DNA from: Iodidimonas sp. SYSU 1G8
GTDB taxonomy: Bacteria; Pseudomonadota; Alphaproteobacteria; SMXS01
Length of the DNA: 32,000 bases
Direction: 5' to 3'
Assembly (NCBI RefSeq): GCF_039655775.1
Contig: NZ_JBBYXJ010000001.1
Location: forward strand, 1,427,208 to 1,459,207
The position numbers were made by a program, and so were the translations under genes. The notes beneath the pieces were generated by a model. The model ran no database searches. It was not told the origin of the DNA and worked only from the letters and a program-made list of their open reading frames with translations. Below are positions 2,915-20,458 of the stretch, piece by piece; position 1 is the first letter of the stretch; every line of letters starts with the position of its first letter.

Positions 2915-3307
2915 TCAGTGAAAGATGGCTATCGGCTCCAGGTCGTCCAGCTTGACGTGCAGGACGCTGGCGATCTTGCGGCGCGCCTCCAGGGTTTCCT
3001 CGGTCTGCCCGGTTTCCACGCCGACGATGTAATCATGGGGCAGGCCCGCCGCTTCCGCCAGACGGGTCGTCGAGAAGCCGCGGAGCTCGCGGTAGAGCTT
3101 GTGCGGCGTTTCACCCTGCATCAGCCGCTGCGCGAGCGCGATTGGCAGCGCGTCACGATTCATGGACGAATTGACCCATTCGGCGAGACTGCCGAGACTG
3201 GTCTCCTCGGCGACCTTCATCAGCCGATCAAAAAGCTCTTCGGAGACGATGACGATCCGCTCGTCGCCCGCCAACGCCCGAATTAACGTGTATCCGCCTA
3301 TGTCCAT
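2915..3307 (-). CDS. XRE-family helix-turn-helix protein, antitoxin-like architecture (130 aa)
   Basis: Start placed at ATG 3307 (MDIGGYTLIRALAGDERIVIVSEELFDRL...). The 77 upstream codons of track ORF 2915..3538 overlap the response-regulator gene and look non-coding. The C-terminal half, LYRELRGFSTTRLAEAAGLPHDYIVGVETGQTEETLEARRKIASVLHVKLDDL, has the HTH_3/XRE pattern. Confidence 0.7.
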   Translation of the reverse strand: MDIGGYTLIRALAGDERIVIVSEELFDRLMKVAEETSLGSLAEWVNSSMNRDALPIALAQRLMQGETPHKLYRELRGFSTTRLAEAAGLPHDYIVGVETGQTEETLEARRKIASVLHVKLDDLEPIAIFH

Positions 3308-3372
3308 GCCGATATCCCGATTTACCAAAAGCGAGAGATACCACCGGTCGCAACAAATCCGCAATCGAGGCG

Positions 3373-4020
3373 TCAGGGATTGGCGGATCCCAGGTTGTTC
3401 AGGGCCCAGATCGCGGCGGCCGTGCGATTGGGCGCCCCGATCTTCCGGAGAAGCGCCTTCATGTGAACCTTCACCATATTCTCGGTGACGCTCAGATGGA
3501 CGGCAATTCGCTTGTTCGGCTCGCCCCGCGCCAGGCATTCGAGGATGCTTTCTTCCTGGGCCGACAGACTGGGCAGGGCTGGACGGCCCACCCGCGCCGG
3601 CGTGCTGATCAATGTGGGGACGAGTTCGCTCGGCAGCACCTTTTCGCCCATCAGAACCAGCGCGAGAGATTCCCTGAGCGCCGCGGGCCCGACATCCTTC
3701 ACGAGATAGCCGCTGGCGCCCGCCTTCAGGGCCGCCACCAATTGCGGGACCGACAGCTCTGGCGTGAGGGTCACGACCGGTACGTCACTCCAGCGCGCGC
3801 ACAGCGCCGTGAGCGCGCCTTCTTCAGCGCTCGGCGCCGAGAGGGATGACTGCAGGCTGACGATGATGATGTCCGGCTTCTGGCGGCAGGCCGTGATGTC
3901 CCCCAGCGCCGTCAACGAGGCGGCCTCCGCCGTCACCATGAAGTGGGAGTCCGCCAGAAGGCTCTTGAGACCCTCCCTCAGAAGCCGGCTCGGATCCACG
4001 ATCCAGAGACTGTGTTGCAT
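3373..4020 (-). CDS. NarL/FixJ (LuxR-type HTH) response regulator with a degenerate receiver domain, 215 aa
   Basis: Start placed at ATG 4020 (MQHSLWIVDPS...). The C-terminus LSAQEESILECLARGEPNKRIAVHLSVTENMVKVHMKALLRKIGAPNRTAAAIWA is a LuxR/GerE HTH. The receiver keeps the conserved Thr (VVTLT) and Lys (GYLVKD). It reads DP instead of DD at the acidic pocket, and PDIIIVSLQ where the phospho-acceptor Asp is expected. Confidence 0.85.
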   Translation of the reverse strand: MQHSLWIVDPSRLLREGLKSLLADSHFMVTAEAASLTALGDITACRQKPDIIIVSLQSSLSAPSAEEGALTALCARWSDVPVVTLTPELSVPQLVAALKAGASGYLVKDVGPAALRESLALVLMGEKVLPSELVPTLISTPARVGRPALPSLSAQEESILECLARGEPNKRIAVHLSVTENMVKVHMKALLRKIGAPNRTAAAIWALNNLGSANP

Positions 4021-4274
4021 TATGGCTTCCCCGATCCATGGCGCCCCCTTACCCCCATCGCGCAACTATGTGCTTGCTTGATTAAGAAAGCACTAACAGG
4101 GATTAAGACCCGCCAAAATTTCCTGTGAGGGCGACCAGCAAGCGTGAGACGTCCGCGGGACGGGTTACGGCGGCGCCTCAGCGAGAGATACTGACGAGCG
4201 CGCTCTTGGTTCCCGGCATCGCCCCTTTTGGTAGGCGGGTTGTACAGCCTCGCGAGAGGCCAGAACGCGCAAAT

Positions 4275-4427: not shown

Positions 4428-7400
4428 TCAACGCGGTCTTGGGCGTGGTTTGGGAAGCGCTGCACGCGGTGCACTCGACGGTGGCGGTGTGGTGTTAGCC
4501 GGCATGCGTTGGCATGTATGGGTGATCGTGGCTTCGGCGCCGTCGTCGAGGTAATAGTCCAATCCGGACGATAAATCATAGCGGTGGACCCATTCCTCAC
4601 CGTCCCTCGAAAGCAAAGCCTCGATCCACCGATCGTGGAACTCGCGGTTTGGTCCTTGGGTTCGCTCGATCACTTGGGTTTGCTGCGGCCTCTCCGTTGC
4701 GGGAAAGGCAGCGCGGATCGCCGTCTCTCTGGCAGAGCGATCGCGTCGCCCCGGTTCCTTCGCTCCATCAGGGCGCACGATGAGCTCCAGGCGCTTAGGC
4801 ACGACGCCAGCGTAGGTAATGAGCTGCATTAGGAAAGCTGTCGTGGCAGGAAGGTTGTCCCGAACCTGGCCGTAATTGGTCTGCTGCCGTGCCAGCGCAT
4901 AGGGGTCCCTGATAGTCAGACGCCTGATCTCCGAAGCACCCTTGAGCGCATCAAAGTCTGCCTCGAGACTTCTGCGATCTCCAGGCGCGTATACCGTACG
5001 CTTCGTTTCCTTAATGGAATAAGTCAGCGCCTCGTTGGCCATCGATGCGCCGTCGAGGGCTGCATTGATCGCGTCCAGCAGGTCCGGCGCATCCTTCGTC
5101 CGCCGCCGTCGCACTCTGCCAGGCAACAACTCCTCGAACAATGCCATGTCAGATTGATCGGAGTAGATCAGTAAGCCTGATGCTTGTTCGCCATCGATCA
5201 CGACCCGTGGAAGAGAGGCTGCAATGTCCTTGCGCATTCTGCGAACCTCGACTTGCCCACGCTCAACCAGCGCGGTCAATTGCCGGACGACGACCAGCGC
5301 CGCCGTCGGCAACAGGTCTAGCCGCAACGTACCGACCTCCTCGGTCAGGATGGTGACGCGCCGGTCCGCGCCCTTCTTGCAAAACTCAGAGATGAGTTCG
5401 AACGACTCCGGAACCCGCGTGACATTGCCTTCGTGATCGAGTTCGGCCAGATCCGTTGCCGCGGCCGTCCATAGACGACGTGCTGTCAGGATCAGTCGCG
5501 ATGCACCCCGAACCTCTTCACGAAGTCGCTGGGAGGAGGCATCCGCCCATAGTGGCCCAAAGCGATGATCGAGTTCTATATCGGTCCGCGCCCTTATCAG
5601 CCACGCCAGAACGGTTTCACGCCGGAAATCATCCCAGTTCGCTTGGTTGGAATAATCTCGCAGACATTTGCGGCACGACCCGGAACAGTTCGCTGGGCAA
5701 TCGAGAATGCGCAATGCTTTGTCGACCAGTTCCGACGCGTTGTAATCTTCGCCCAACTTCCGGACGAACCCGGCGCCCCCGGATACGGCGTCATAAAGGA
5801 TCACCTCCGGACGCCCCCCTCGATAGGCGAAAGTGGTGCGCATGTCTCGGCTGTCGCACTTAAGCAGGTCGGCCGCTCCCAGGCGGAGAGCCTCGGAAAG
5901 TGTCCTGATGAAACCGTCTCGCCACTTTTCCTCGTCATCCGGCAAGATATTTTCTGGAACTGGCGGAAGTGCGTCCGCGAAGAGATATCCTCTGACCTCG
6001 GTCTTGAAGACATGGCCAAGGTCGATCAATTCCAGGTTTCCCTTGCAGGGCTGGTCATCCCTGGGGCGCCGATGATCTTCTCCCGTTACATATGGCGCCG
6101 TCTCGCCCCGATGGGCCGCGCGCGCGAATTCACAACGCTGGCAACGGTAAAACCCCGCGCGATGCCGTCCTCTGTTCGCGATCAGCAGCTTGCCCTCGGT
6201 CTGTCGTGACTCCGGATCCGCGAAAGCCTTGAGGAACCATGTTTTGAGCCCTGGGACGTCGGTCGACTTGATCTCGTCCGAATGTGCGCGTGTAATCAGT
6301 TTGGCATCCGACGCCGCGCGGCTTCGTCGCCTCGATACGCCTGGCTCTCGGCCGCGACGGGCCCCGATGGTTGTGACGAAGCCCTTGGGTTCGATGAAAG
6401 GGCGTCGGTCGAAAAAACTGCGTGAACTGCCGCAATTGGAGCACTCGTCGCCGAGGGCGTCCCTGTCGTCATAGGGGATGTGGTCCACATGTGCACATTC
6501 CCGGCATGCCGCGTACCATTGCTTAGGAACAAATTCGTCCGGATACCGCGCAATCCCCCCACTCACCCAGACCCGGTGGCCTGAAACGACTTCTTCGCCT
6601 GGGGCGTACTCGACAATACCAAGAGCCGCATCCCGCGAGAGCTGAAGATCGTCTTCCAATGTCTGGGAGGCGCGTTGTCTTTTCTCGACGCTCTGCAGCA
6701 CCTCGAGAACCACTGAACTTGTCGGAAAACTATATGTCGGTATCAGGGCGTATTCGGAAAGCACATCAACCAGCCGGCGGTTCATGAAATCTTTTATCTC
6801 ATATCCCATTCGCGCTGCGAGCCCCGGATTGTCACCCTCCATTGCTTCCGATCGGCGCGAGTAGAGGGTTCCGCATCGGTCAGCGACCATCAGGGCAAAG
6901 CGCCGCAATTCGAGCAGCAGATCATCAGCAGCTTCCTCCGGGGACCCGAACCCTATCGAAGCTAGGCCCTGCTGGTCTAGATACTCGCGAAGGCTAAAGG
7001 CCTCGAGCAGCCAGCGCTCTCCGTCGTCGCCCTTCAGCCAGTTCTCAAGGGTTCTGAGGAACTCATGGACTGTCGCAAAATGGGGGCCGGGGACCCGAAC
7101 AATTTCCGCTTCGCGCAGAAAGAGGGGAAGAGCATCGGCACCTAGGGCCGGAGCGAACAGGTCGCGCAAGCGTGGTGCAGAAATCTTGTCGCTAGGCAGG
7201 GCGCTACGGAGAAACCCGGCCAGCGCGACGGATCGCTGATGACGGCGGAAGAACACGGGGTTATCGAGTTGTACCCAGGGCGTGGCAGGAGACCGTCCCA
7301 GATACTCCTGGAAGGACACAAAGGATGCCTGGTCGAACTGTCCGGATCGGGCGAGCGTCAGGGTCAGCGGGGACGCCTGCAATCGTCGACCCGCGCGGCC

Positions 7401-10400
7401 TGCCCTTTGCTGGTAGTTGGCGATGGTCGGCGGGACATTTCGACAGAAAACCGCTTCCAGGTCGCCTAGGTCGACGCCCATTTCCATCGTTGTCGAGCAG
7501 CTCAAAAGATTGATCTCGCCATTTCGAAAACGAGTTTCGATCCGGTCTCTCAGTTCCGTGCCGATTGAGGCAGTATGTTCTCTTGCGGTCGCTGTCAGCG
7601 CCTTCGCATGCGTATATCGCCGTGCATAATGGTTCTGTTCCCCTAGGAGTCTTCGGCGCTCATCGGTCATCCTTTCCAGTGCCCCATCGCAGCCAAGTGC
7701 GAGACAGGTACCGGTCAAATTCCGGACGCTGCGGGTCCCGCAGCGGTCGCAGACGAACAGCGGCCGGTCGACTCCATTGACCAGTGTTATCTTGGATAGC
7801 CCGACGCCAAAACCGTTTTTGCCATCTCGGTTTTGTTGCAACAGTCCTTGCTGACACGCCGCCTTGAAAAAGTGCGTTAACAAATTCTTTCGTGTTGGCT
7901 GATCAGTGATACCTGCCTTCTCGATTAGAAGCCTTGAGCGGAAGTGCCGATCGCTCGATGGCAGCCAGGACTCGGTCGCGCCTTCCTTACTCTTCATGAG
8001 GTCTAAGGCCACGGACCGGCCTTTCTGGTTGAACTTGTCGGTCCAGGTATCGGGATCTCCCAGGTCAACCATATTGCTCTGGGATTTTACGATCTGTCGC
8101 CGGCGGCGGACGCCATCCAAAAGCAGGCGGGTCAGTTCTTCTGACTGACTGCTGTTCCAATCCGCCGGAACGAAAGGAGTTATGGCCGTCGCGATATTCC
8201 TGAGGCCGGCGTTCTCATACTCCACCGCCACCAGACCCAGCGACTCAAGTGTCTCACGGGAGGGCCGAGGGAGACAGAACTCGAATAGGATGCGACCCAG
8301 CACTTGAACCTTCACATCCGCGTCATCCAATTCTTCCATCGCGCCGGGCACGCGCCAGTCGAACAACGGCAGACGCTGCCAGTCGTCGCCTTCATTGAGG
8401 CGTCGACATACCTCCGTGCCTGCCCTCTCGATGGCGATCGGGCCCTCCGCCACGCACTGTGTCAGCGCCCGGCGAATGGCTTGATCCATTGCTGCCCGCT
8501 CGAAGAACGGCGCGAAAAACGCAGCATCCTGACGGTTGTCAGAGAACACCAGCAGCTTGCGGCCTTCTGCCGGCAGACGGGTATGGGTGGAAGGCGGCAG
8601 GGCTTCCAGCAACGCCTGAGCGACAACCGAGGCCAGCGCGTCATCTCCGGGATGGATGGGCGTCACAGCCTCAGAACCATCGAGCGGCTTGAAGCCGCAA
8701 TTGGGGCAGACAGGAACAATGGGCGGCTCGTCGTCCGCACCTACGGCTCTCTCGACTCTCTCAAGGGAAAGGACATTTAGAGACCCTTGGTCGTTGGCTA
8801 AAGCGCCCGTTTCCGGGTCGAACCTGAGCTTGGCATTTTCCTGCGCCTCCTCATCCACCGACTCGTCGGCGGCATCCAGCGCTTCGCTTCCGGGTCGCAG
8901 CCGCAGGACTACACGGTCAGAAACCCGCGTTCTGCCGGGTTCGAAGCGAGGTTCGACGATCTGATTGTGGAGCCATCCTTCTACATGCGGTTCACCACAG
9001 TTGCGGCAACAGAGAAGGCTGTACCATTTCCCTCCCACGGAGGACCTGGAGCGACCTACCTCAACATTTGCAATGCCTTCCTGGCTGGTCGCGGAGAGTT
9101 GCACGATAAGCCCGTCCACCCCAGTCGCGGCCAAGTGATGCCGGGCGGGCAACAGGGCGAAGTCATCGGGCGCGGAGCGCGCGGTGACGCCCACGGAGAT
9201 GACCCCAGCCAGTGCCGCGTATGCTGTCTGAAACTCGGCGTTCGGAAAGATCTGTCGCGCTACTTCATCATATCGTTTCCGCCCGTCCCTCAACATCGCC
9301 TCGGTGCGCCTTACCTCGACGTTCCTCTGGAACTTTTCGAGAAGGCCGCTACCCAAGTCCGTAGCGAACTCGTCCAGAAGGAGCGAACCTGGTAGGTCCG
9401 CCTCCTCGATCTCAGTGTTCCAGTCGAACGCGGATGTCGCTCCTAACCCCCGAAGCTTTCCGATCAGGCCGGGCAACTTTGCCCAGGAGCCGGCATCGAG
9501 CGACCAGACTTCGTCTTTTCGGGACAGACCGGCATGTGGCTGACGCTTGCCCGTGATCACACCGCCATCAAACCGTGCGTCGAACAGATGGGATGCGAAT
9601 TGCTTGAGGCGGTCGGCCTCTGATTCGTCAAGGGATGCGCTGGTCCCTACGCAGAAAATCTGTCGGGTCTTGTTGCCGAAAATGCGGTTCTTCAGCTTTC
9701 GCAGCAAGAAAGCCGTCTCGACAGCCTGCGCCCCGGTATATGTATGCACCTCATCAAGAATGAGCGCTTGGAGTTGGCTGCCTTGCAAGAGAGGAGCGTT
9801 CCTGGGCAGGAGCAATACATGCTCGAGCATCGCATAGTTGGTGACAAGGATGTGGGGCGGCTGCGTCAGCATTTCGCCGCGAGACAACAACCAGTTGTCT
9901 AGTGACGCGCCATGCAAGACCTCCATCAGGGTTTCGTTGCGTTCAAGACGTGCCAGCTCCTGCTCCCGGCTGGAACCGGCACGCACTTGCCCCGTAAAAC
10001 GCCCGAACCGAATACCGGGGTCTCCCAGGTCCCTAAGGAGGAGAGGCGCGATCCGGTAGAATAGCTGATCGGTTGCAAGCGCGTTCAGCGGATAGATGAG
10101 AATTGCCCTCACGCCCGGCGCCGACCGGTTTGGCTCCCTCAGCAATCGGTCGATCAAAGGGTAGAGGAAGGCCTCGGTTTTTCCCGAACCGGTACCCGTC
10201 GCGACTAGATAGTTTTTACCCTCGGACGCACCACGGAGCGCCTGCTCCTGGTGTCTGTGCAAACGCCGGTTGAGCAGTTTTCGGCCGTGGTCATGGCTGC
10301 CCAGGCGCAGCCACTCGTCGCAAAGGACCCCTTCTCGCACCAGTTCTGCGAGCGTGGCTCCCTTTTCGTAATCCGGAAGCGCCTCCAGATAGGGGCCCTT

Positions 10401-10559
10401 GACAAGCTCCGTGGCGCTGAGCGCTCCCCTGTATTTCTCTGCCAACACAGGCGAACGGAGCTGAGACACCGGCGCCGTCGTCGCGATAAATCGCGCGATG
10501 GTCCGTTCCAGCTCCTGCTTGAAGAGCATGGGGTCCAACTCATGTCGCGCCTGTGTCAT
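4428..10559 (-). CDS. Giant DEAD/DEAH-box helicase with DUF1998-type zinc-ribbon region and long C-terminal extension (2,043 aa); DruE-like (Druantia)
   Basis: Track ORF 4428..10685. I placed the start at ATG 10559 (MTQARHELDPMLFKQ...), which overlaps the upstream stop as ATGA (10556-10559). Helicase motifs read directly: motif I VATGTGSGKTEAF (nt 10176-10202), motif II LILDEVHTY, FSDNRQDAAFFA, STTMEMGVDLGDL and motif VI YQQRAGRAGRR. Several CxxC pairs follow (CPNCGF, CDRCGT, CRECAH...CSNCGS, CQRCEF). The DUF1998-style ending is ILYDAVSGGAGF...CPANCSGSCRKCLRDYSNQ. About 480 more residues follow. Confidence 0.85.
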   Translation of the reverse strand: MTQARHELDPMLFKQELERTIARFIATTAPVSQLRSPVLAEKYRGALSATELVKGPYLEALPDYEKGATLAELVREGVLCDEWLRLGSHDHGRKLLNRRLHRHQEQALRGASEGKNYLVATGTGSGKTEAFLYPLIDRLLREPNRSAPGVRAILIYPLNALATDQLFYRIAPLLLRDLGDPGIRFGRFTGQVRAGSSREQELARLERNETLMEVLHGASLDNWLLSRGEMLTQPPHILVTNYAMLEHVLLLPRNAPLLQGSQLQALILDEVHTYTGAQAVETAFLLRKLKNRIFGNKTRQIFCVGTSASLDESEADRLKQFASHLFDARFDGGVITGKRQPHAGLSRKDEVWSLDAGSWAKLPGLIGKLRGLGATSAFDWNTEIEEADLPGSLLLDEFATDLGSGLLEKFQRNVEVRRTEAMLRDGRKRYDEVARQIFPNAEFQTAYAALAGVISVGVTARSAPDDFALLPARHHLAATGVDGLIVQLSATSQEGIANVEVGRSRSSVGGKWYSLLCCRNCGEPHVEGWLHNQIVEPRFEPGRTRVSDRVVLRLRPGSEALDAADESVDEEAQENAKLRFDPETGALANDQGSLNVLSLERVERAVGADDEPPIVPVCPNCGFKPLDGSEAVTPIHPGDDALASVVAQALLEALPPSTHTRLPAEGRKLLVFSDNRQDAAFFAPFFERAAMDQAIRRALTQCVAEGPIAIERAGTEVCRRLNEGDDWQRLPLFDWRVPGAMEELDDADVKVQVLGRILFEFCLPRPSRETLESLGLVAVEYENAGLRNIATAITPFVPADWNSSQSEELTRLLLDGVRRRRQIVKSQSNMVDLGDPDTWTDKFNQKGRSVALDLMKSKEGATESWLPSSDRHFRSRLLIEKAGITDQPTRKNLLTHFFKAACQQGLLQQNRDGKNGFGVGLSKITLVNGVDRPLFVCDRCGTRSVRNLTGTCLALGCDGALERMTDERRRLLGEQNHYARRYTHAKALTATAREHTASIGTELRDRIETRFRNGEINLLSCSTTMEMGVDLGDLEAVFCRNVPPTIANYQQRAGRAGRRLQASPLTLTLARSGQFDQASFVSFQEYLGRSPATPWVQLDNPVFFRRHQRSVALAGFLRSALPSDKISAPRLRDLFAPALGADALPLFLREAEIVRVPGPHFATVHEFLRTLENWLKGDDGERWLLEAFSLREYLDQQGLASIGFGSPEEAADDLLLELRRFALMVADRCGTLYSRRSEAMEGDNPGLAARMGYEIKDFMNRRLVDVLSEYALIPTYSFPTSSVVLEVLQSVEKRQRASQTLEDDLQLSRDAALGIVEYAPGEEVVSGHRVWVSGGIARYPDEFVPKQWYAACRECAHVDHIPYDDRDALGDECSNCGSSRSFFDRRPFIEPKGFVTTIGARRGREPGVSRRRSRAASDAKLITRAHSDEIKSTDVPGLKTWFLKAFADPESRQTEGKLLIANRGRHRAGFYRCQRCEFARAAHRGETAPYVTGEDHRRPRDDQPCKGNLELIDLGHVFKTEVRGYLFADALPPVPENILPDDEEKWRDGFIRTLSEALRLGAADLLKCDSRDMRTTFAYRGGRPEVILYDAVSGGAGFVRKLGEDYNASELVDKALRILDCPANCSGSCRKCLRDYSNQANWDDFRRETVLAWLIRARTDIELDHRFGPLWADASSQRLREEVRGASRLILTARRLWTAAATDLAELDHEGNVTRVPESFELISEFCKKGADRRVTILTEEVGTLRLDLLPTAALVVVRQLTALVERGQVEVRRMRKDIAASLPRVVIDGEQASGLLIYSDQSDMALFEELLPGRVRRRRTKDAPDLLDAINAALDGASMANEALTYSIKETKRTVYAPGDRRSLEADFDALKGASEIRRLTIRDPYALARQQTNYGQVRDNLPATTAFLMQLITYAGVVPKRLELIVRPDGAKEPGRRDRSARETAIRAAFPATERPQQTQVIERTQGPNREFHDRWIEALLSRDGEEWVHRYDLSSGLDYYLDDGAEATITHTCQRMPANTTPPPSSAPRAALPKPRPRPR

Positions 10560-13500
10560 GACCAGACCTCCATTGCCTGATTGAGGTACCAAGAGAGCAA
10601 TTCGGGACCGAGACGGCAGAGAAAGCCGACTTCGGCGATGGGGGATCGCCTTGAGTCGACGTCTTCGAAGGTCCGGGCGCACCATGCATCCACTGCGCCT
10701 GGCATGGCCCTGTTCATTCGGGATGCCTTTGCGAGTTCCGCGAAAAAGGCTGGCGCTGCTTCGACGATCGACGCGCCCCTGCTGACCGCCGGTGGGGATT
10801 CAGGAACGCGATAGTTGGGTACGTCGCCCGAGCGGCCCAGCTCCCGATAGGCCAAGGAGCAGAGAGCGGCGGCATGGCTGATGCGCTCCTGGTTCGCCTC
10901 CCCTCGGCTTGCCCGCTCGACCCTGTCAGCGAAGCGTCTGCAAGCCTCGTCGTGACTCGCGAGGCGCTCGTTTTTTGCAGGAGGGTTATCCAGCCATGAT
11001 GCCAGGTTTCTCGCCCCCTCATCGTCGGCGTCGCGCAGGTTACCTGCAAGCGCGGTGCGGTCGGCGGAAAACAGCCCCGGCCAGACTTCGAGCGGATGAC
11101 GGAGCGGAACCCATGTCGGATTGGCGTCCGGGGGCGGCGCCACGCCTGCCGACCTAATCAACACATCGCGAGCTTCCGTATCACCGAGCGCTGCGGCGTC
11201 AGAGAGCTCTCTGCCTAGGACCGACCAGAGACGTTCTAGCGCGACGAGGTGATGATGCCAGCATTCTGGCGCCCAGCAGATGGCAAGGGCACTGCTCAAT
11301 CTTGAAAAGGCCAGCGCCTTCGTATCCTCGGGTAGCTCCATAAGTTCAAGACTATCGAGCGGCACAAGCGTGCCGTTTTCCTTCGCAACCGCCAAACCGT
11401 AGTGATCGCCTCTTGCCGACCGCAACGGGCTGGGCTGGGCGCCTGGCCTGAGACGTGCTTGCGCCTCGAAAAGCCAGACTCCGTCGGCGATGCTGCGTTC
11501 GGCGCAGTAGAGGCGCCACACGCCTTGAACCTGTTCCTGCGAAACGCCATCGTTCCGCGACAGCCGCTCCACGTCCCCTGTCAACAGGTTGATGCCTTCG
11601 AATTCGAAAAGGCTGACGTCGTCGTCGAACGTGCATTCGAGTACCGAGCGGCCTCCTCTTCGCTCCACGCCAGCGCGGCGAGGCGTGCAGGGCTGCGCGA
11701 TGATCGCAAGGGTTATGGCACTGACGGGATTTCCGCCGGGATAAAGTTCGACTTTCGCATCACCTTCATCGCCATGCAGTCCGGTCAGGGACAGGCGGCG
11801 GACACCGAGAGCGCCGAAAGCGCGGGTCTCGACCCTTGTCCCGAACGCGAGCGATGCCTCTCGGTCGTCGCAATAGACGCGGAGGTAAAGCGGGCGTCCG
11901 TCATCGAGGATCGTACTGCCTCGATCCAGGCCGCGCCGGTTCGCGCCCTCTTCCAGCTCGAGAAATATCCCCGGCCTCGGCAACCGGATACGGTAATGGC
12001 TCCCCTCAGCGCGGCGAAACGCCAGTTCGACCGATCTGTCCACGCCGGCTCCTATCGTTATGCCGCGGTCCCGGACGACCAGTCCAATGGAGGCCGACTG
12101 GTCGAAATTTTCGGGCACAGAACCCACGAAACAGCCGTCCTCCAGGCAGTCGAGCCTCGGCCACAGCCAAGCGCTCGCCGCCTGAACCAGCGCTCTTTGC
12201 TCGCCTGACCTCACCAGAGCCGCCGTAAGACGGTCGAAATTGGCACCAGGTTCCAGCACCGGAAAATCGGCGCGTCCGCTGCCCGCCTCGTCGAAAACGA
12301 CCGCTGACCTGCTCAGTTCGCCCGTCGACGTTCGCAGCACGACCTCGTATGGCGTGTTGAGTAGCAGCATTTCCCTGGGCAAGGCGCTTTCGACGCCCAG
12401 TGATGCCCCGGAAAAGACCGGCACGCCGCCGATGTCGCAGACGGCTGGACTCGACCAGATAAGGCGCGGCACCGCATGAGCCATAATCGCATGTTCCGAA
12501 CCGTCTGCTAGCCGGACGACGCGGCGGTCGCCATCGAACATTTCCACGGTCAGCATCCATAGCCCCGACAGCGACTGTGATGCCGGTTCCTGGTCGCAAT
12601 TGAACGGTTCCCGCGACACCAGATAAAGCTGCCCCGCCGGTGCTTCCAGACTGACGTGCCGCCCGGAAGCCGCATCGAAGATGCTAAACCGGGATGCTGT
12701 CCAGATGGGGAATTGCCGCGATGTCACCGGCTCATCGTCTGCCTCGAAATCAAGCCGCCGGGTCTCTACCGACACGCTGTCTTCGAATGAAACCGGCAGT
12801 TCCTCGCCGGCCTTTATCACCACCTCGCCGCTCCAGGAGCCCCGAACCGTCCACGTCCAGCCTGTTGCCTGGAGAGGCGTGACGATGACGATCTCGTCGC
12901 CATTGAACAGAACTTCCGGCCTCGGCCCGAGGCGCGCATAGCTGTCTCGCACCAGACTCCTACTGGTATTGATCGCCGAGGCGAACCGCGCCTCGAAAGC
13001 AGACTGTGGAGGATTTCCGTCTGCGAGGCGGCCAAAAGCCAGCGAATGCCATCCCAGCACGTCGTGCCTGAGCACCCTTGGCAGGTTCTTCGGTCCCCGC
13101 TGCTCCAGTCGGTCGACAAGAGCCTCATGCCAGAACCGAAGGCCATCGGGATCATGCGGATCGGGTGCCCCCAACTCCCTTTCGACCTGCAGACAGGCCG
13201 AGGCCAGGTCCGGCAGTACGGTATCGACCGGGCCGGCCTGGAGCTGGTATTCGTTCCGGCGTCTCCATGTTCCGGTCTCCCGCAGTTGCAGTTCTGTAAG
13301 AACGGGTAGCCCCAGATCCACGCAGGCGCGGCGGAAAGCTTGGTAGAAGCGCTCCCTGTCGAGTGGAGATAATTTTGAGCCGAGTTCAGCCTCGAAATGA
13401 GGATAGAGTTCGCCTTGGCCGTCGAGCCCCGTCTCCCGCTGCGCCAGGGACGCGAAATAGGCAACGGCAACGGCAGGAGACAGTCGGAAGAGCGGCTCGA

Positions 13501-13687
13501 TGCGAGCTATAGGCTGCGGTCCTTGCAGAAAGTCGTGAACCCCCCGAGCAACCTCTGCCGCGAGTTCATACTGACCCAGGAATGGCGACGCATCTACCAG
13601 AGTGAGCCGCGCTCGCAACGCCGCTTCGGCCTGTTTTATGGCCGCGTTCCTCACGAGTGAAATGGTTTCCGCCAGATCAAATTTCAT
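10556..13687 (-). CDS. Large protein of unknown function (1,043 aa), translationally coupled to the downstream helicase; DruH-position partner
   Basis: Track ORF 10556..13699 (GTG). I prefer ATG 13687 (MKFDLAETISLVRN...), which has GGTGGGGG a few nt upstream. It is a long uninterrupted frame with high third-position GC, and its stop overlaps the helicase ATG. I recognise no catalytic or binding motif. Confidence 0.8.
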   Translation of the reverse strand: MKFDLAETISLVRNAAIKQAEAALRARLTLVDASPFLGQYELAAEVARGVHDFLQGPQPIARIEPLFRLSPAVAVAYFASLAQRETGLDGQGELYPHFEAELGSKLSPLDRERFYQAFRRACVDLGLPVLTELQLRETGTWRRRNEYQLQAGPVDTVLPDLASACLQVERELGAPDPHDPDGLRFWHEALVDRLEQRGPKNLPRVLRHDVLGWHSLAFGRLADGNPPQSAFEARFASAINTSRSLVRDSYARLGPRPEVLFNGDEIVIVTPLQATGWTWTVRGSWSGEVVIKAGEELPVSFEDSVSVETRRLDFEADDEPVTSRQFPIWTASRFSIFDAASGRHVSLEAPAGQLYLVSREPFNCDQEPASQSLSGLWMLTVEMFDGDRRVVRLADGSEHAIMAHAVPRLIWSSPAVCDIGGVPVFSGASLGVESALPREMLLLNTPYEVVLRTSTGELSRSAVVFDEAGSGRADFPVLEPGANFDRLTAALVRSGEQRALVQAASAWLWPRLDCLEDGCFVGSVPENFDQSASIGLVVRDRGITIGAGVDRSVELAFRRAEGSHYRIRLPRPGIFLELEEGANRRGLDRGSTILDDGRPLYLRVYCDDREASLAFGTRVETRAFGALGVRRLSLTGLHGDEGDAKVELYPGGNPVSAITLAIIAQPCTPRRAGVERRGGRSVLECTFDDDVSLFEFEGINLLTGDVERLSRNDGVSQEQVQGVWRLYCAERSIADGVWLFEAQARLRPGAQPSPLRSARGDHYGLAVAKENGTLVPLDSLELMELPEDTKALAFSRLSSALAICWAPECWHHHLVALERLWSVLGRELSDAAALGDTEARDVLIRSAGVAPPPDANPTWVPLRHPLEVWPGLFSADRTALAGNLRDADDEGARNLASWLDNPPAKNERLASHDEACRRFADRVERASRGEANQERISHAAALCSLAYRELGRSGDVPNYRVPESPPAVSRGASIVEAAPAFFAELAKASRMNRAMPGAVDAWCARTFEDVDSRRSPIAEVGFLCRLGPELLSWYLNQAMEVWS

Positions 13688-14056
13688 TACGGCCCCCACC
13701 GCCTAAATCTTCGAACTTCACTGTAGCTTATCCGGGAATCCAAAAGCCCCTTTTTGAGAACCGGGCAACAACGCGCCCTAATTTACAGGGCCTGCATGGC
13801 TTGGCCTGCCCCTGAAAAGTGGTCCGGTTTCAACGATAGTTCATGGTTGGCCTTTGCACCAATGGTAACGCGCCTGGGTTAGCTGGTGCCGGTTGCGGGG
13901 CCGGCCGCGCAGGGACGTAGGTCTCGAGAGCTGGCGGCCGGCACCTTAACACCTTGACCAGCCACCCTCTTCGTCGATCACGAAGCATTAGCTTAGGACT
14001 AAACTGACCGATCCGAGTTGTCTGCCACTACTACTGTTTTGGGCGAGGAGTGGGCG

Positions 14057-16132
14057 TCATGGCATCTCGAATATGTCGACCTTAGTTTCGAGGCAACGGC
14101 GCAAGGCAAGATCGTTGCTGCCGATCGAATACCAACCTTCCGGGCGTTGATAAAAATCGAGACCACGCCCAATCTTCACGATCCAGCCGTTATCGACACG
14201 GATTTCCCGGTCGTGGAGGTTCTCGTTCAGCTCTATCGTCAGCAGGACATCAATTTCCAGCAGACTCTGCTTCAGTTCCTCCAGCTTCTCGTTCATGGCG
14301 GCTAGGTCCGTCTTATCATCGTAGCTAGTGACCAGCTTGATGTGACGCACGGTCGGCGCCTTCACGACGGCTTCGCAGAAACGAACAAAATTCGTGATCT
14401 GGTGCGGCAATCTGATGTACGGGTCTTCTATCATCAAAGCCTTTGCGCCGCGGAGATAGGGGCCGATGATGCTGTCGTACGTATGGCCGGTATCGCCATA
14501 GACGATCGTGAAGTGCTGTTCTTGGGGCTCGCACTCACTTTGACCCACGGCCACTTCGGTGGGCGCATCTATAGGCGGCGCGTCCCTGGCCGGTTCAGCC
14601 GCCTCAGGCTGTTCGATAGGCTCGGCTTGCAACCGGCGGCGGGCGGGTTCGAGCGTTGCATAGGCGCCAACGGACTCCGGGCAGCGAACAACGACTTCAG
14701 TGCCTTTGCTATCGATATAGGAGAGCTCGATCTGGGCAAATTCGTCGTCCGGCTTGCGCTTGTTCATCTGCTCCTTGATGCGGCGTCGGCATTCGACGGC
14801 ATAGGCGACGTATTCCTCGAACTCCTCGTCGCTTGGCGGGTCCACCGGGTGCAAAATCTTCAGGAAGGCGCACAGGGTCTTCTTAATGCCCTTCTCGTCG
14901 CGCCCCTCCACGGCCTTGCCCAGCTTCACACGCTTGCTGACCTCCTCGTAGCGGTTGCTGTGCTTCAGCTGATAGTGGAAGGCCTCTGCCAGGTAATCGG
15001 TGATCAGCCCGAAGCGGCCGGTTAGGTACGCGCTGCTGTTCTTCGGCATCTCCCAGCCGGGAAGATAGCAGGCGAAACGGTCCATGATGGCGAGATCGAA
15101 CTGCGGCGGCAGCGGCAGGAAGAGGTCGTAATCCGTGGACTTTACGATCTGTTCGATGGACTGGTCGATATTGCCCACGAAGGCCATGCTCGCGTTAGCG
15201 ATCACCTCCACGCCGCGGGAGAAGCGACCGTTCGCCATGAAGTCCTTCATGATCTGGATCGTATCGGGATCCTTGATCTTGATCCCACCGACCTCGTCGA
15301 AGGCGACCGTGTCCCAGAACCCGACCAGACCGATCTTATGCCGGGCGTTGTTGTAGAACAGGATCGATTTGGTTGCCTGGCCGCCGCTGATCAGCGTGGA
15401 GTAGGGTGAAAACTCGCTGAAGAAGTAGGATTTGCCGGTTCCCCTGGGCCCCAGTTCGATGAAGTTGAAGTTCGCCTCCACCAGCGGGGCGAGACGGGCG
15501 ATGAAATGGAATTTCAGGCGTTTCGAGAGTTTGGATGGCTCCAAGCCAACGGACCGCAGCACGCAATCCAGCCACTCGTCTCGGGTCAACTTGGAGCGCG
15601 CTTCGCCGTAAGCGGAGAAGTCGAAGCGGCTGAGCTGGATCGGCCGTAGATCTTCGACATAGAACGCATGATTGTCGCCGTCGATGTCGTTGTGGGCAAT
15701 CACCACCTCGGCCCAAATGCCGCCTTCCAGCAACCGGTCGGTATCGCGATAGAAGCGCTCGCCGATGGCGATGCGCTGCGATGCGAAGTTCTCGAGCGAG
15801 GCCCAGTGCCGGCGCTCCTTCTCGACATAGCGCACATGTACCTTGTCGATGAACTTGTGCTTGCCGGTCATCGCCACACGGGACTGCGCCGCATTGGCTT
15901 CGTCGGGCCGCACATAGTTTTCATGCAACGTCGCCAGCACGGCTTCCATGCCGGCCTGGATCTCTGCTGGATCATTGCTCGCGCAATAGCGAGCCAGCAG
16001 GAACTCCAGCACGAAAGTCGGGATATTCGTGCCCTTCTTGATCCGGTGCAGCAGGTCCTTGCGAACGACCTTACCTTCGAACACGTCATTCAGCTTGCGG
16101 TCGAGGTCGTCCATTTCCGGCTCAGACTGCAT
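14057..16132 (-). CDS. brxL: BREX type 1 BrxL-like AAA+ protein, variant with a C-terminal MIT_C/PLD-fold domain instead of the Lon-protease-like domain (691 aa)
   Basis: Start ATG 16132 overlaps the pglZ stop by 11 nt. The N-terminus KLNDVFEGKVVRKDLLHRIKKGTNIPTFVLEFLLARYCASNDP is BrxL-like. Other features: Walker A ELGPRGTGKS (nt 15428-15451), Walker B-like FWDTVAFDEV and MANGRFSRG. The C-terminal 150 aa carry IEDPYIR...HDREIRVDNGWIVKIGRGLDFY... Confidence 0.85.
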   Translation of the reverse strand: MQSEPEMDDLDRKLNDVFEGKVVRKDLLHRIKKGTNIPTFVLEFLLARYCASNDPAEIQAGMEAVLATLHENYVRPDEANAAQSRVAMTGKHKFIDKVHVRYVEKERRHWASLENFASQRIAIGERFYRDTDRLLEGGIWAEVVIAHNDIDGDNHAFYVEDLRPIQLSRFDFSAYGEARSKLTRDEWLDCVLRSVGLEPSKLSKRLKFHFIARLAPLVEANFNFIELGPRGTGKSYFFSEFSPYSTLISGGQATKSILFYNNARHKIGLVGFWDTVAFDEVGGIKIKDPDTIQIMKDFMANGRFSRGVEVIANASMAFVGNIDQSIEQIVKSTDYDLFLPLPPQFDLAIMDRFACYLPGWEMPKNSSAYLTGRFGLITDYLAEAFHYQLKHSNRYEEVSKRVKLGKAVEGRDEKGIKKTLCAFLKILHPVDPPSDEEFEEYVAYAVECRRRIKEQMNKRKPDDEFAQIELSYIDSKGTEVVVRCPESVGAYATLEPARRRLQAEPIEQPEAAEPARDAPPIDAPTEVAVGQSECEPQEQHFTIVYGDTGHTYDSIIGPYLRGAKALMIEDPYIRLPHQITNFVRFCEAVVKAPTVRHIKLVTSYDDKTDLAAMNEKLEELKQSLLEIDVLLTIELNENLHDREIRVDNGWIVKIGRGLDFYQRPEGWYSIGSNDLALRRCLETKVDIFEMP

Positions 16133-18650: not shown

Positions 18651-20458
18651 TCCATCTCTCTCAGAACGAGAAGAGACTTCACCTCATCAAGCATTGTTCG
18701 AGTGCGCGTCCGTATCGCGCACTCGTTCCAGTCGTTACGGGTTGCGAGAGCGCGATTCAGGTACAGGCCGTTCTTGTAGCCTATATGGTCGCCCGCTTCA
18801 TTAACCCGGTCCCGCTTCTTCTCGAAGGTCATTGTGCCTAGACGGGAATTGTAACCGCTGAGAGTTAGATTGCCCAGTTGATGCGCACTGCGCCGCCTAA
18901 TGTCCTCAGCGCCTTCGCCCTTGCCGGCTGCTTCAAGCATAGAGATCCAGTCGTCGGATAGGTTCTCTGTTTTCGGCAGGATGTGCTCAACTGTGAAGAT
19001 AGGGCGGCCATGCGGATCCTGCGCCCATAGGTCGCGCCGATTTTCCAGTGTCTGATGAGCCTCTTCCAGCTTGCACAGCATGAAGCGCGTTACATCGTAG
19101 TTTTCCACATATACATCGCCAGCAAGCTTCGCATCACAGATCTCTTGTAACGGTGCTTTGCTCATAAGCCATTGACGCGACGCCTTAATAAAATCGTTCA
19201 GGTCCTCGTATCCTCCCTTACGGAGAGGACCAATAAGATGGGCGACTAACTCCATGAACATCGGATCGAGTTCGCGAGTAGGCGGCATATCGGTCAGATT
19301 GCGCCAGAAGAACCACTTGGTGAGCAAAGACGCCAAGCGGTGAACTGCATCGCCCTCACTCCATTTCTGGCTTTGTGCAACCTGGCAGGTCCAAAGCAAG
19401 AATGCGTAAGCCGGCGCGGCCCCCAGGCGTTGGAGGTCCTGCAGGGCTGCTGCAGCGGCGTCGCCCCATTGCTCTCGCGCGGCGGTAGGGTTTAGCAACG
19501 CCGAATAGGTCTTTCCTTTAGTTTGCAATGCTTCAAACAGCCAGACTGGGCGTTTGCGCAGCAAAGTGTCGTAGATGGTAATCAGATTTGAGCGTGTGGC
19601 TCGGGTGCAGCCTTTAACCTCGACCTGCTTGAGGTACTTGAACATGTTGTACAACTGGCGCAGGAAACGCTCCTGAACCGCCGGGTCGGGCAGCGCGTCG
19701 ACAAGGTCCTTCCACTCTTCAAACGCACGGTCGATGCCGTAGTCGGGGCGCTTGTCCAGCTCGGCCAATAGGTTGTTCTTGATGATGTCGATGGCCGAGA
19801 GTGGAATGCCCCGGTTGTTGATCGACTCGAACAACATGAAAGCGTCAGAGTGGCTGCGCACCTCGATCTTCACCAACATTGCGGCCTTAAGCTTTTCCAG
19901 CAGAGCCAGTGCTTGATCTTGCGAAAGACCATCGAGACGCTCAGAGAAATAATTGTAGGCGCGCGCGATGCGACGGTTACCAAAGTAGCTCAAGCCCTTC
20001 GGGGCCTTTACCTGCTTGGGAAACAAATCGCTCAGCACTTTCTGAAAGTCGGATTTGTTCTGCGCTTGCTCACTGGGTTCTAGGCGCCAGTGTCCGGTCG
20101 CGCGAACGAAAATGCGGCTTTCCAGGTTGTCTAGCTCGACCAGCAGACGGCGATCCGGGTTCGGAATGGCGTTAAGCTTGTTGTAAAACGCACAGAACAG
20201 CAGGCTGATGGTGGTAAACCGCTGTTGGCCGTCGATCAACTCGAGCCGACCACCCGCCATGCTGTCCTGCTGGGCATTCACGCAAATGATGGAACCCAAG
20301 AAGTGCCCGCTGGGTGACTCTTCCAGGTCGTTGAATAGGGAATCCCAGTTCTTGGCGCCCCACACATACTCGCGTTGGTACTTCGGAATGAAGAACGACG
20401 TTGCGCCATCGGGGCTGAAATAGAAGCTGACGGGCAGCGCTTTGACGTCCTGGATCAT
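18647..20458 (-). CDS. DUF262 + DUF1524 (GmrSD-family) type IV restriction endonuclease-like protein, BrxU-like (603 aa)
   Basis: Start placed at ATG 20458 (MIQDVKALPVSFYF...), which overlaps the pglX C-half stop as ATGA. The 78 upstream codons of the track ORF lie inside pglX. DUF262 strings: IPKYQREYVWG and LIDGQQRFTT. DUF1524 His-Me finger strings: FTVEHILPK and HQLGNLTLSGYNSRLG. Confidence 0.85.
   Translation of the reverse strand: MIQDVKALPVSFYFSPDGATSFFIPKYQREYVWGAKNWDSLFNDLEESPSGHFLGSIICVNAQQDSMAGGRLELIDGQQRFTTISLLFCAFYNKLNAIPNPDRRLLVELDNLESRIFVRATGHWRLEPSEQAQNKSDFQKVLSDLFPKQVKAPKGLSYFGNRRIARAYNYFSERLDGLSQDQALALLEKLKAAMLVKIEVRSHSDAFMLFESINNRGIPLSAIDIIKNNLLAELDKRPDYGIDRAFEEWKDLVDALPDPAVQERFLRQLYNMFKYLKQVEVKGCTRATRSNLITIYDTLLRKRPVWLFEALQTKGKTYSALLNPTAAREQWGDAAAAALQDLQRLGAAPAYAFLLWTCQVAQSQKWSEGDAVHRLASLLTKWFFWRNLTDMPPTRELDPMFMELVAHLIGPLRKGGYEDLNDFIKASRQWLMSKAPLQEICDAKLAGDVYVENYDVTRFMLCKLEEAHQTLENRRDLWAQDPHGRPIFTVEHILPKTENLSDDWISMLEAAGKGEGAEDIRRRSAHQLGNLTLSGYNSRLGTMTFEKKRDRVNEAGDHIGYKNGLYLNRALATRNDWNECAIRTRTRTMLDEVKSLLVLREME

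What the first reader, a model, noticed from the sequence alone, without database searches (positions are those of the whole stretch)
4509..5003. The giant helicase ends in a module related to the BrxL C-terminal domain (DPY...HDR...GLDYY)
The C-terminus of the 2,043-aa helicase reads ...RRLTIRDPYALARQQTNYGQ...VVPKRLELIVRPDG...QVIERTQGPNREFHDRWIEALLSRDGEEWVHRYDLSSGLDYYLDDGAEATITHTC. Its conserved strings appear in the same order as in the BrxL variant 9 kb away. I-x-DPY matches IEDPYI. A beta-strand-like L-E-L-I-V matches IKLVTS. F/L-HDR-x-I matches LHDREI (H codon at 4635-4637). GLDYY matches GLDFY. A terminal hydrophobic strand, ATITH, matches KVDIF. Two adjacent, otherwise unrelated defence modules would then each end in a divergent MIT_C/PLD-like module. 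That suggests a shared partner, substrate or localisation signal, or an exchangeable effector/sensor domain. The match is short and judged by eye only.
Basis: inference. Interest (0 to 1): 0.7.

Follow-up and report, generated by a model that had tools for sequence, protein, structure and literature searches.

The report
Helicase tail is a MIT_C-type nuclease-like domain
The last ~170 residues of the giant Druantia-type helicase are a distant relative of the domain that ends the neighbouring BREX protein BrxL, but both fusions are already described and their adjacency looks like defence-island coincidence.

Summary
The quoted strings are at 4509-5003 on the minus strand, with the His codon at 4635-4637. 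The resemblance to the BrxL C-terminus is real but remote homology. Pairwise BLASTP and Pfam on the tail alone fail. A 19-sequence profile of the tail matches a BrxL C-terminal profile at 95.7% probability, E 8.8e-9, against scores of 9-19 for reversed and shuffled controls. A second profile aligns DPY, HDR and GLDYY in register. An AlphaFold2 model (pLDDT 93) has human MITD1 as its best solved-structure match, followed by other PLD-fold proteins.

The tail is the second of two tandem PLD-like domains. The first is degenerate. This architecture, and its likeness to MITD1, were reported for Druantia III DruE in 2026 preprints. BrxL variants ending in MIT_C/HKD domains were reported in 2025-2026 (1030 of 2913 taxa).

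Homologous helicase cassettes in seven other genomes carry the same tail. None of the four loci with a readable upstream flank has BREX beside it. The "exchangeable effector domain" reading is therefore supported; the "shared partner or localisation" reading is not.

Most likely function: a helicase-coupled PLD-type DNA phosphodiesterase or regulatory module. Activity is disputed in the literature.

The parts
4428..10559 (-). DruE-like SF2 helicase gene. It encodes 2,043 aa from the ATG at 10559; the first-ATG ORF starts at 10685 and gives 2,085 aa.
   Evidence: Pfam finds DEAD, Helicase_C and MZB/DUF1998. PADLOC gives DruE1 at 4.4e-164 and DruE3 at 3.4e-148. The best PDB sequence hits are two ~2,000-aa helicase chains, 9tu7_Y and 9wae_A, probably DruE. 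ATGA overlap and GGAGG at the start.
5013..5549 (-). PLD1: the upstream, degenerate PLD-like domain (ORF aa ~1713-1891). It has no His and no conserved Asp. P1826-R1827 is invariant in the family.
   Evidence: The AF2 model of aa 1680-2062 (pLDDT 86.5) shows a second beta-alpha-beta unit. Foldseek aligns 365-382 columns of the model to polyphosphate kinases, which by general knowledge carry tandem PLD-like domains. hhalign of PLD1 against PLD2 and against the BrxL C-terminus gives 0.3%.
4491..5012 (-). PLD2: the MIT_C-type PLD-fold domain (ORF aa 1892-2065). This is the finding itself.
   Evidence: AF2 pLDDT 93, pTM 0.88. Foldseek top hits are MITD1 4a5z/2ymb at E 1.2e-5 to 1.4e-4, then PPK1, PLD, SauUSI and NgoAVII. 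The tail HMM's best PDB sequence hit is MITD1, E 0.005. hhalign against the BrxL C-terminus gives 95.7%.
4899..4907 (-). D-P-Y motif (D1927-P-Y1929) after the second strand. D and P are invariant in 19 homologues.
   Evidence: It aligns with IEDPY of BrxL and of MITD1.
4629..4637 (-). H-D-R motif (H2017-D2018-R2019), the HxK-equivalent of the PLD superfamily with Arg in place of Lys. F-H-D-R is invariant.
4551..4568 (-). S-G-L-D-Y-Y (S2040-Y2045). S2040 lies 23 residues after the His. G2041 is invariant; D2043 is invariant and nearly invariant.
   Evidence: It aligns with GRGLDFY of BrxL. The spacing equals H1999 to S2022 of the published PaDruE pocket (bioRxiv 10.64898/2026.05.13.724313).
4431..4499 (-). 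Pro-rich, basic C-terminal extension (…PANTTPPPSSAPRAALPKPRPRPR), beyond the fold.
   Evidence: Similar …P(V/Q/K)PRPR(S)R endings occur in P0002 and P0011, and looser Pro-rich basic ends in P0001, P0003 and P0004.
10556..13699 (-). 1,047-aa partner gene directly upstream and translationally coupled, in the DruH position.
   Evidence: It is homologous to the ~1,150-aa ORF that precedes the helicase in L002, L003, L006 and L007 (E 2e-22 to 4e-47). It has no Pfam, PADLOC or PDB sequence match, alone or as a profile.
14069..14488 (-). MIT_C domain of the BrxL variant (BrxL ORF 14057-16159, aa 558-697). This is the comparison partner.
   Evidence: Pfam gives MIT_C at 5.1e-50, BrxL_ATPase at 9.4e-118 and BrxL_N at 3e-42. 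PADLOC BrxL PDLC02508 matches full length at 2.7e-275.

Best explanation
The helicase is a Druantia type III-style DruE. It has an SF2 helicase core, an MZB/DUF1998 domain and two C-terminal PLD-fold domains. It is encoded after a translationally coupled ~1,050-aa partner. The flagged segment is the second PLD domain.

That domain belongs to the MIT_C ('HDR') branch of the phospholipase-D superfamily. It keeps the Asp after strand 2 (RDPY), the His-x-Arg (FHDR) and the Ser/Gly-Gly-x-Asp turn. It is therefore a distant homologue of the MIT_C domain that replaces the Lon-like domain in the neighbouring BrxL variant.

The most economical reading is that two different DNA motors, the SF2 helicase DruE and the MCM-like AAA+ protein BrxL, each independently acquired the same kind of output module. 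They sit side by side only because defence systems cluster.

Likely mechanism (inferred). The motor loads on or unwinds invader DNA and feeds it to the PLD pocket. The pocket would act as a phosphodiesterase through the His nucleophile, with Arg and Asp supporting. PLD1 lacks His and Asp, so a full two-half-site PLD centre would need helper residues from PLD1 or the helicase body, or pairing of two PLD2 domains in a DruE oligomer.

What is shown and what is not. Shown here: homology, fold, motif conservation, the two-domain architecture, conservation of the tail in other cassettes, and absence of BREX in the readable flanks of those cassettes. Inferred: catalysis and its coupling to the helicase.
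For: Homology and fold:
- hhalign of the tail profile against the BrxL C-terminal profile gives 95.7%, E 8.8e-9. Controls score <=19 against 56.8.
- A second profile aligns three motifs in register.
- 5 of 19 tail homologues hit Pfam MIT_C, best E 7.7e-4, and no other PLD family.
- The tail HMM's best PDB sequence hit is MITD1, E 0.005.
- AF2 pLDDT is 93. Foldseek top hits are MITD1 at E 1.2e-5 to 1.4e-4 with probability 1.00, then PLD-superfamily proteins.

Motifs: D, P, F-H-D-R, R and G are invariant.

Architecture: the two-domain model and its polyphosphate-kinase matches.

DruE identity.

Same tail on full-length homologues (35-38% identity over ~2,050 aa), each after a homologous partner.

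Literature:
[quoted passage not shown] The pocket comprises D1917/R1918/Y1919, R1951, H1999, R2001 and S2022, and alanine substitutions of D1740, D1917 or R1918 abolished defence (bioRxiv 10.64898/2026.05.13.724313).
- An upstream inactive PLD and a downstream active PLD are described, with DruE DNA cleavage in vitro (PMC13192584; PMC12458937).
- BrxL MIT_C/HKD variants with Lys-to-Arg occur in 1030 of 2913 taxa (PMC12839542; PMC12065111).
- The D-to-H spacing (81 without the clade-specific 9-aa insert, against 82) and the H-to-S spacing (23 against 23) match PaDruE.
Against: - The window's tail itself does not reach any Pfam threshold. It shows no sequence similarity to the solved ~2,000-aa helicase chains 9tu7_Y and 9wae_A, so equivalence with published PLD2 rests on architecture and motif spacing.
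- Two E. coli studies found the PLD domains dispensable for defence, and one of them found no reproducible nuclease activity (bioRxiv 10.64898/2026.05.12.722862 and 10.64898/2026.05.13.724758).
- PLD1 here lacks the Asp and His that PaDruE contributes to the pocket.
- The partner protein is not recognisable as DruH by sequence.
- Non-coupling with BREX rests on only four complete and three partial loci, with about 1 kb of readable upstream flank in the complete ones.
Confidence: 0.6

Rival explanations
1. The tail is a catalytically silent PLD-like module. It would serve oligomerisation, nucleotide or DNA binding, regulation, or cross-talk with other systems, as MITD1's domain does in membrane binding. 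It would not be a nuclease.
For: E. coli DruE lacking PLD2 or both PLD domains still defends, and no reproducible nuclease activity was seen (bioRxiv 10.64898/2026.05.12.722862; 10.64898/2026.05.13.724758). ATPgammaS binds in the PLD pocket, and the C-terminal domain mediates trimer contacts (PMC13192584). PLD1 in this lineage has no His or Asp, so only one half-site exists per chain. The closest solved structure is MITD1, described as an ESCRT-III-binding, membrane-binding protein in the title of the reference cited in PMC12065111.
Against: F-H-D-R, D-P and the Gly of the S/G-G-x-D turn are invariant, and its Asp nearly so, across homologues only 25-35% identical. That is unusual for a purely structural domain. 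Pocket mutants abolish defence in PaDruE (bioRxiv 10.64898/2026.05.13.724313). [quoted passage not shown]
Confidence: 0.3
2. The two MIT_C-type modules are functionally linked. They would heterodimerise into one composite PLD site, or bind a common partner, activator or phage inhibitor, so that BREX and the Druantia-like cassette act as one unit.
For: The two systems are co-directional and adjacent: BrxL stops at 14057 and the partner starts at 13699. PLD enzymes need two half-sites, and each protein supplies only one intact HDR motif. Synergy between Druantia III and neighbouring systems is documented, and one group speculates that the PLD domains mediate it (bioRxiv 10.64898/2026.05.13.724758).
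Against: Homologous cassettes have no BREX gene in the flanks that could be read. The stand-alone MIT_C proteins examined, which are close to the BrxL C-terminus, have no DruE nearby. The domains share only about 17-21% identity. Each host protein oligomerises on its own according to the literature, which provides homotypic pairing.
Confidence: 0.05
3. The resemblance is a chance run of short motifs with no common ancestry.
For: BLASTP gives E 0.034 over 26 residues only. Pfam finds nothing on the tail.
Against: Profile-profile E 8.8e-9 with clean controls, independent structural matches to MITD1, and MIT_C hits among homologues.
Confidence: 0.02

Closest known systems
C-terminal PLD2 ('PLDa') domain of Druantia type III-A DruE (P. 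aeruginosa and E. coli cryo-EM studies, 2026 preprints; Bell et al. PMC12458937)
   Same: Position after the MZB domain. Tandem arrangement of a degenerate PLD1 and a motif-bearing PLD2. MITD1-like fold. D-x-Y, H-x-R and S pocket residues with the same spacing. A two-gene cassette with a ~1,000-aa upstream partner.
   Different: No detectable sequence similarity to the solved ~2,000-aa helicase chains in this region. PADLOC DruE3 profiles stop aligning at residue ~1750. PLD1 lacks the Asp and His reported for PaDruE. The partner is not recognisable as DruH. There is an extra 9-residue hairpin after DPY and a Pro-rich basic tail.
BrxL variants ending in MIT_C / 'HKD-endoDNase' (PMC12065111; PMC12839542); in this window, 14069-14488
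   Same: The same MIT_C branch of the PLD fold. DPY, HDR and G-L-D-aromatic motifs in the same order. Fused to the C-terminus of an NTP-driven DNA motor in a defence system.
   Different: About 17-21% identity. BrxL has a single domain rather than a tandem pair. The hairpin between HDR and GLD is shorter (13 against 22 residues). The BrxL C-terminus matches Pfam MIT_C at 5e-50, whereas the tail does not match at all.
Human MITD1 C-terminal domain (PDB 4a5z, 2ymb; Pfam PF16565 MIT_C)
   Same: Best solved structural match (TM 0.52-0.65, E 1.2e-5 to 1.4e-4) and best PDB sequence match of the tail profile. Shares the IxDPY and HDR motifs.
   Different: A eukaryotic cytokinesis protein with an N-terminal MIT domain and membrane binding. 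No nuclease role has been shown.
PB-PLD1 domain of Menshen NsnC (PMC12065111)
   Same: An HDR-type PLD module proposed as a nuclease effector on a DNA-binding defence protein.
   Different: A different host protein (ParB-like). Not compared directly here.
C-terminal ~150 residues of the PADLOC ZorD1 profile PDLC00634
   Same: The only PADLOC model hit by the isolated tail (E 4.5e-7). Two homologous tails, from loci L002 and L004, hit it at 2.8e-12 and 5.3e-10. It is again a helicase (SNF2) with this module at its C-terminus.
   Different: It is annotated 'Mrr-like nuclease'. No paper in the held library describes a PLD domain in ZorD. Not examined further.

Membership tests
Pfam MIT_C (PF16565) / MIT_C branch of the PLD superfamily | Match to the curated Pfam HMM above its gathering score | tested here: not met
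   No hit on the tail even at E<=10. 5 of 19 homologues hit only weakly, best E 7.7e-4.
Pfam MIT_C (PF16565) / MIT_C branch of the PLD superfamily | Profile-level homology to a bona fide MIT_C domain | tested here: met
   hhalign against the BrxL C-terminal profile (itself MIT_C at 5e-50) gives 95.7%, E 8.8e-9. Controls are clean.
Pfam MIT_C (PF16565) / MIT_C branch of the PLD superfamily | PLD fold closest to MITD1 | tested here: met
   AF2 pLDDT 93. The Foldseek top four hits are MITD1 chains, followed by PPK1, PLD, SauUSI and NgoAVII.
Pfam MIT_C (PF16565) / MIT_C branch of the PLD superfamily | Acidic residue after strand 2 plus an HDR motif before strand 5 (definition in PMC12065111) | tested here: met
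   D1927 (RDPY) and H2017-D-R2019 are invariant in 19 homologues.
Canonical HKD nucleases/phospholipases (Pfam PLDc, PLDc_2; Nuc, BfiI, SauUSI) | HxK(x)4D(x)6G(S/T)xN motif and a match to the PLDc models | tested here: not met
   The motif is H-D-R with Arg in place of Lys. No PLDc family hit in the tail or in any of 19 homologues. Only fold-level similarity.
Druantia type III DruE | SF2 DEAD/Helicase_C core plus MZB (DUF1998), ~2,000 aa, match to DruE models | tested here: met
   Pfam. PADLOC DruE1 at 4.4e-164 and DruE3 at 3.4e-148. PDB chain 9tu7_Y at 3.8e-59.
Druantia type III DruE | Two C-terminal PLD-like domains (type III-A) | tested here: met
   Two-domain AF2 model. Foldseek aligns 365-382 columns to polyphosphate kinases. 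PLD1 is recognisable only by structure.
Druantia type III (system level) | DruH encoded next to DruE | tested here: inconclusive
   A conserved ~1,050-1,160-aa partner is present and translationally coupled. It matches no PADLOC model and no PDB chain, alone or as a 5-sequence profile. Its fold was not predicted.
PLD-type nuclease (functional class) | His-dependent phosphodiester cleavage | not testable with these tools
   Published results for DruE conflict: bioRxiv 10.64898/2026.05.13.724313 and PMC13192584 report activity; 10.64898/2026.05.12.722862 and 10.64898/2026.05.13.724758 do not.

The most novel reading that the evidence does not exclude
The HDR-type MIT_C modules of BrxL and of the adjacent DruE-like helicase are not independent. 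Each supplies one intact half-site. They could pair across systems, or be controlled by one common ligand or phage inhibitor, which would make this BREX-Druantia island a single cooperative unit. More broadly, the same module on BrxL, DruE, Menshen NsnC and apparently ZorD could define a common, swappable 'motor-coupled HDR nuclease' output shared by four defence families.
Probability: 0.06. Interest if true: 0.6.

Novelty: new member of a known kind. Interest (0 to 1): 0.25.

Why it matters
The result gives a clean, quantified link between the C-terminal modules of two defence motors that have been described separately. It also shows that a divergent DruE lineage, whose partner is not recognisable as DruH, keeps the HDR pocket strictly conserved. 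That bears on the open dispute over whether DruE's PLD domains are nucleases or dispensable appendages. It does not reveal a new kind of system. The attractive idea that the two neighbours talk to each other through the shared module has no support from comparative genomics.

Tried and rejected
- Pairwise BLASTP of the tail against the BrxL C-terminus: only E 0.034.
- Pfam on the tail alone at E<=10: nothing.
- phmmer of the tail, and of the last 386 aa, against PDB sequences: nothing relevant, and no match to the solved ~2,000-aa helicase chains.
- Word-indexed homologue searches with the tail profile and with the 386-aa tail returned only 10 and 1 proteins. The useful set came from the exhaustive HMMER search.
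- An HMM built from 121 close BrxL C-terminal sequences was too narrow to detect any DruE tail in loci L001-L007.
- The first search for related loci attempt failed because the alignment had no conserved stretch.
- Exact look-ups of the window's BrxL, DruE and GmrSD proteins found no source contig.
- No plasmid match by DNA or by protein.
- The chance-motif explanation was rejected.
- I considered that the tail might be a canonical HKD nuclease. This was rejected: the motif is HDR rather than HxK, and there are no PLDc hits.
Full report
**Layout of the window**

All large genes in 4.4-29.8 kb lie on the minus strand. From 29778 down to 14057 there is a type 1 BREX operon:
- BrxA, BrxB and BrxC.
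- PglX encoded as two 633-aa ORFs.
- An inserted GmrSD gene.
- PglZ.
- A BrxL variant whose residues 558-697 match Pfam MIT_C at E 5.1e-50 instead of a Lon-like domain. It matches PADLOC BrxL model PDLC02508 over its full length.

A 1,047-aa ORF follows (10556-13699). It has no Pfam, PADLOC or PDB sequence match.

Next comes the giant helicase (4428-10685 from the first ATG). Its real start is almost certainly the ATG at 10559. That ATG overlaps the upstream stop as ATGA and is preceded by GGAGG. The helicase has DEAD, Helicase_C and MZB/DUF1998 domains. It matches PADLOC DruE1 at 4.4e-164 and DruE3 at 3.4e-148. It also matches two solved ~2,000-aa helicase chains, 9tu7_Y and 9wae_A, which are probably DruE.

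**Check of the observation**

The quoted peptide and all coordinates are correct. In ORF numbering:
- DPY is D1927-Y1929 (4907-4899).
- HDR is H2017-R2019 (4637-4629).
- SGLDYY is S2040-Y2045 (4568-4551).

Simple tests do not show that the resemblance to BrxL exceeds chance. BLASTP gives E 0.034 over the DPY stretch only. Pfam finds nothing in the tail even at E<=10.

**Building a profile**

An exhaustive phmmer search of 1.84 billion representative proteins found only 19 relatives. They are C-termini of ~2,000-aa proteins or fragments of such proteins.

In their alignment, D-P of DPY, F-H-D-R, one Arg and one Gly are invariant. Five of the 19 hit Pfam MIT_C weakly (best E 7.7e-4), and none hits another PLD family.

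Profile comparisons gave these results:
- The profile against the single BrxL C-terminal sequence: 78.8%, E 1.6e-5.
- The profile against a 121-sequence BrxL C-terminal alignment: 95.7%, E 8.8e-9, score 56.8.
- One reversed and 20 column-shuffled versions of the BrxL C-terminal alignment: scores 9-19, probability <=1.5%.
- A second tail profile that includes genome-derived homologues: IRDPY/IEDPY, RLELIVR/HIKLVTS, FHDR/LHDR and SSGLDYY/GRGLDFY aligned in one register (91.2%, E 1e-6).

The last pair, ATITH with KVDIF, is not aligned with confidence.

**Structure**

AlphaFold2 on the 19-sequence alignment gives pLDDT 93 and pTM 0.88. Foldseek against the PDB returns human MITD1 (4a5z, 2ymb) as the top four hits, with E 1.2e-5 to 1.4e-4, probability 1.00 and TM 0.52-0.65. 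Other PLD-superfamily proteins follow: PPK1, a phospholipase D, SauUSI and NgoAVII. The tail HMM searched against all PDB sequences also ranks MITD1 first (E 0.005), aligned from DPY to HDR. No viral structure matches.

**The tail is one of two domains**

A model of residues 1680-2062 (pLDDT 86.5) shows two beta-alpha-beta units. Foldseek aligns 365-382 columns of it to polyphosphate kinases, which carry tandem PLD-like domains (general knowledge), and again finds MITD1.

The upstream unit, PLD1 (~1713-1891), has no sequence similarity to PLD2 or to the BrxL C-terminus (0.3%). It has no conserved His or Asp, only an invariant Pro-Arg.

**Relatives elsewhere**

A scan of one genome per species found seven loci. 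Four hold complete ~1,970-2,024-aa helicases that are 35-38% identical to the window's over their whole length, tail included. Each is preceded by a ~1,150-aa ORF homologous to the window's 1,047-aa ORF (E 2e-22 to 4e-47). The partner+helicase+tail cassette is therefore conserved.

The partner family matches no PADLOC model and no PDB chain, even as a profile. Its identity as DruH is open.

None of these loci has a BREX gene or a MIT_C domain in the flanks that could be read. In the four complete loci the upstream flank extends only about 1 kb beyond the partner gene. Neighbours include type I R-M genes, an SMC-like ATPase and a UvrD helicase.

Conversely, three stand-alone MIT_C proteins about 70% identical to the BrxL C-terminus were looked up. 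They lie in two other defence-island contexts, and no DruE is nearby.

**What is already known**

- Druantia III DruE has two C-terminal PLD-like domains (PMC12458937; PMC13192584; bioRxiv 10.64898/2026.05.12.722862; 10.64898/2026.05.13.724758).
- One group states that these domains closely resemble MITD1. It defines a pocket of D1740, H1830, D1917, R1918, Y1919, R1951, H1999, R2001 and S2022, several of which are needed for defence (bioRxiv 10.64898/2026.05.13.724313).
- The window's D-x-Y, H-x-R and S residues match this in spacing. D to H is 90 residues, or 81 without a clade-specific 9-residue insert, against 82. H to S is 23 against 23.
- BrxL proteins ending in MIT_C were noted in PMC12065111. 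PMC12839542 counted them as 1030 of 2913 BrxL-bearing taxa, with the Lys-to-Arg change.

Each half of the finding is thus published. The explicit statement that the two belong to the same PLD branch follows from those reports, and I have quantified it here.

**Mechanism**

I consider it most likely that the tail is the output or regulatory module of the helicase: a His-dependent PLD-type phosphodiesterase fed by the motor. I put this at about 0.55-0.6.

The evidence divides as follows:
- For activity: strict conservation of the pocket residues in a lineage only 25-35% identical overall.
- Against activity: two E. coli studies in which the PLD domains were dispensable, one of which found no reproducible nuclease activity, and the absence of a second half-site in PLD1 here.

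A non-catalytic role in oligomerisation or in nucleotide or DNA binding is the main rival (about 0.3).

Functional coupling with BrxL through the shared module is not excluded, but nothing supports it beyond adjacency (about 0.05).

**Verdict**

This is a new, divergent member of a known kind. Interest is low to moderate.

Noticed in passing
window 10556-13699 (-); L002 1058-4540, L003 1066-4545, L006 1083-4541, L007 1122-4550: The ~1,050-1,160-aa partner gene is conserved upstream of this helicase lineage and is translationally coupled (ATGA). It matches no PADLOC model and no PDB chain, alone or as a 5-sequence profile. It is either a very divergent DruH or a different partner family.
   Followed up: partly
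window 4491-5012 (-); tails of the helicases in L002 and L004: The only PADLOC model hit by the isolated tail is the last ~150 positions of ZorD1 profile PDLC00634 (E 4.5e-7). The homologous tails from L002 and L004 hit it at 2.8e-12 and 5.3e-10. The model is annotated 'Mrr-like nuclease'. This suggests that some Zorya ZorD helicases end in the same MIT_C-type module. No paper in the held library says so.
   Followed up: partly
window 4431-4499 (-): After the fold the protein ends in a Pro-rich, basic peptide (…PPPSSAPRAALPKPRPRPR). P0002 and P0011 end in …PRPRSR, and P0001, P0003 and P0004 have looser Pro-rich basic ends. It may be a short docking motif.
   Followed up: no
window 4860-4890 (-), ORF aa ~1934-1943: A 9-residue insert (QQTNYGQVRD region) follows DPY. 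It is shared only with the two closest relatives, P0001 and P0002, and is modelled as an extra beta-hairpin.
   Followed up: no
window 20455-24254 (-): PglX is encoded as two 633-aa ORFs that overlap by 4 nt. The N-half has the Eco57I/MmeI methyltransferase domains. The C-half matches a dedicated PADLOC PglX model, PDLC02532, at 5e-265.
   Followed up: no
window 18647-20692 (-): A GmrSD-type (type IV restriction) gene sits inside the BREX operon between PglX and PglZ. A GmrSD gene also lies a few genes from the stand-alone MIT_C proteins in L009, L010, L011 and L015.
   Followed up: no
L009 10001-10741, L012 10001-10513, L015 10001-10534: Stand-alone 170-246-aa MIT_C proteins about 70% identical to the BrxL C-terminal domain occur in other defence islands. 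One context has a metallophosphoesterase, a type ISP enzyme and GmrSD. The other has a KAP NTPase, a QatB homologue and a TatD DNase gene. They may be BrxL remnants or free modules.
   Followed up: partly
L008 1-10636 (Chitinimonas arctica CP041730.1): A DruE homologue is broken into three pieces by two copies of an IS3-family element. Its MIT_C-type tail is left as a separate 211-aa ORF, P0013.
   Followed up: yes
window 2915-4065 (-): Directly downstream of the helicase lie a LuxR-type response regulator (3373-4065) and an HTH_3 protein (2915-3538). Any relation to the defence genes is unknown.
   Followed up: no
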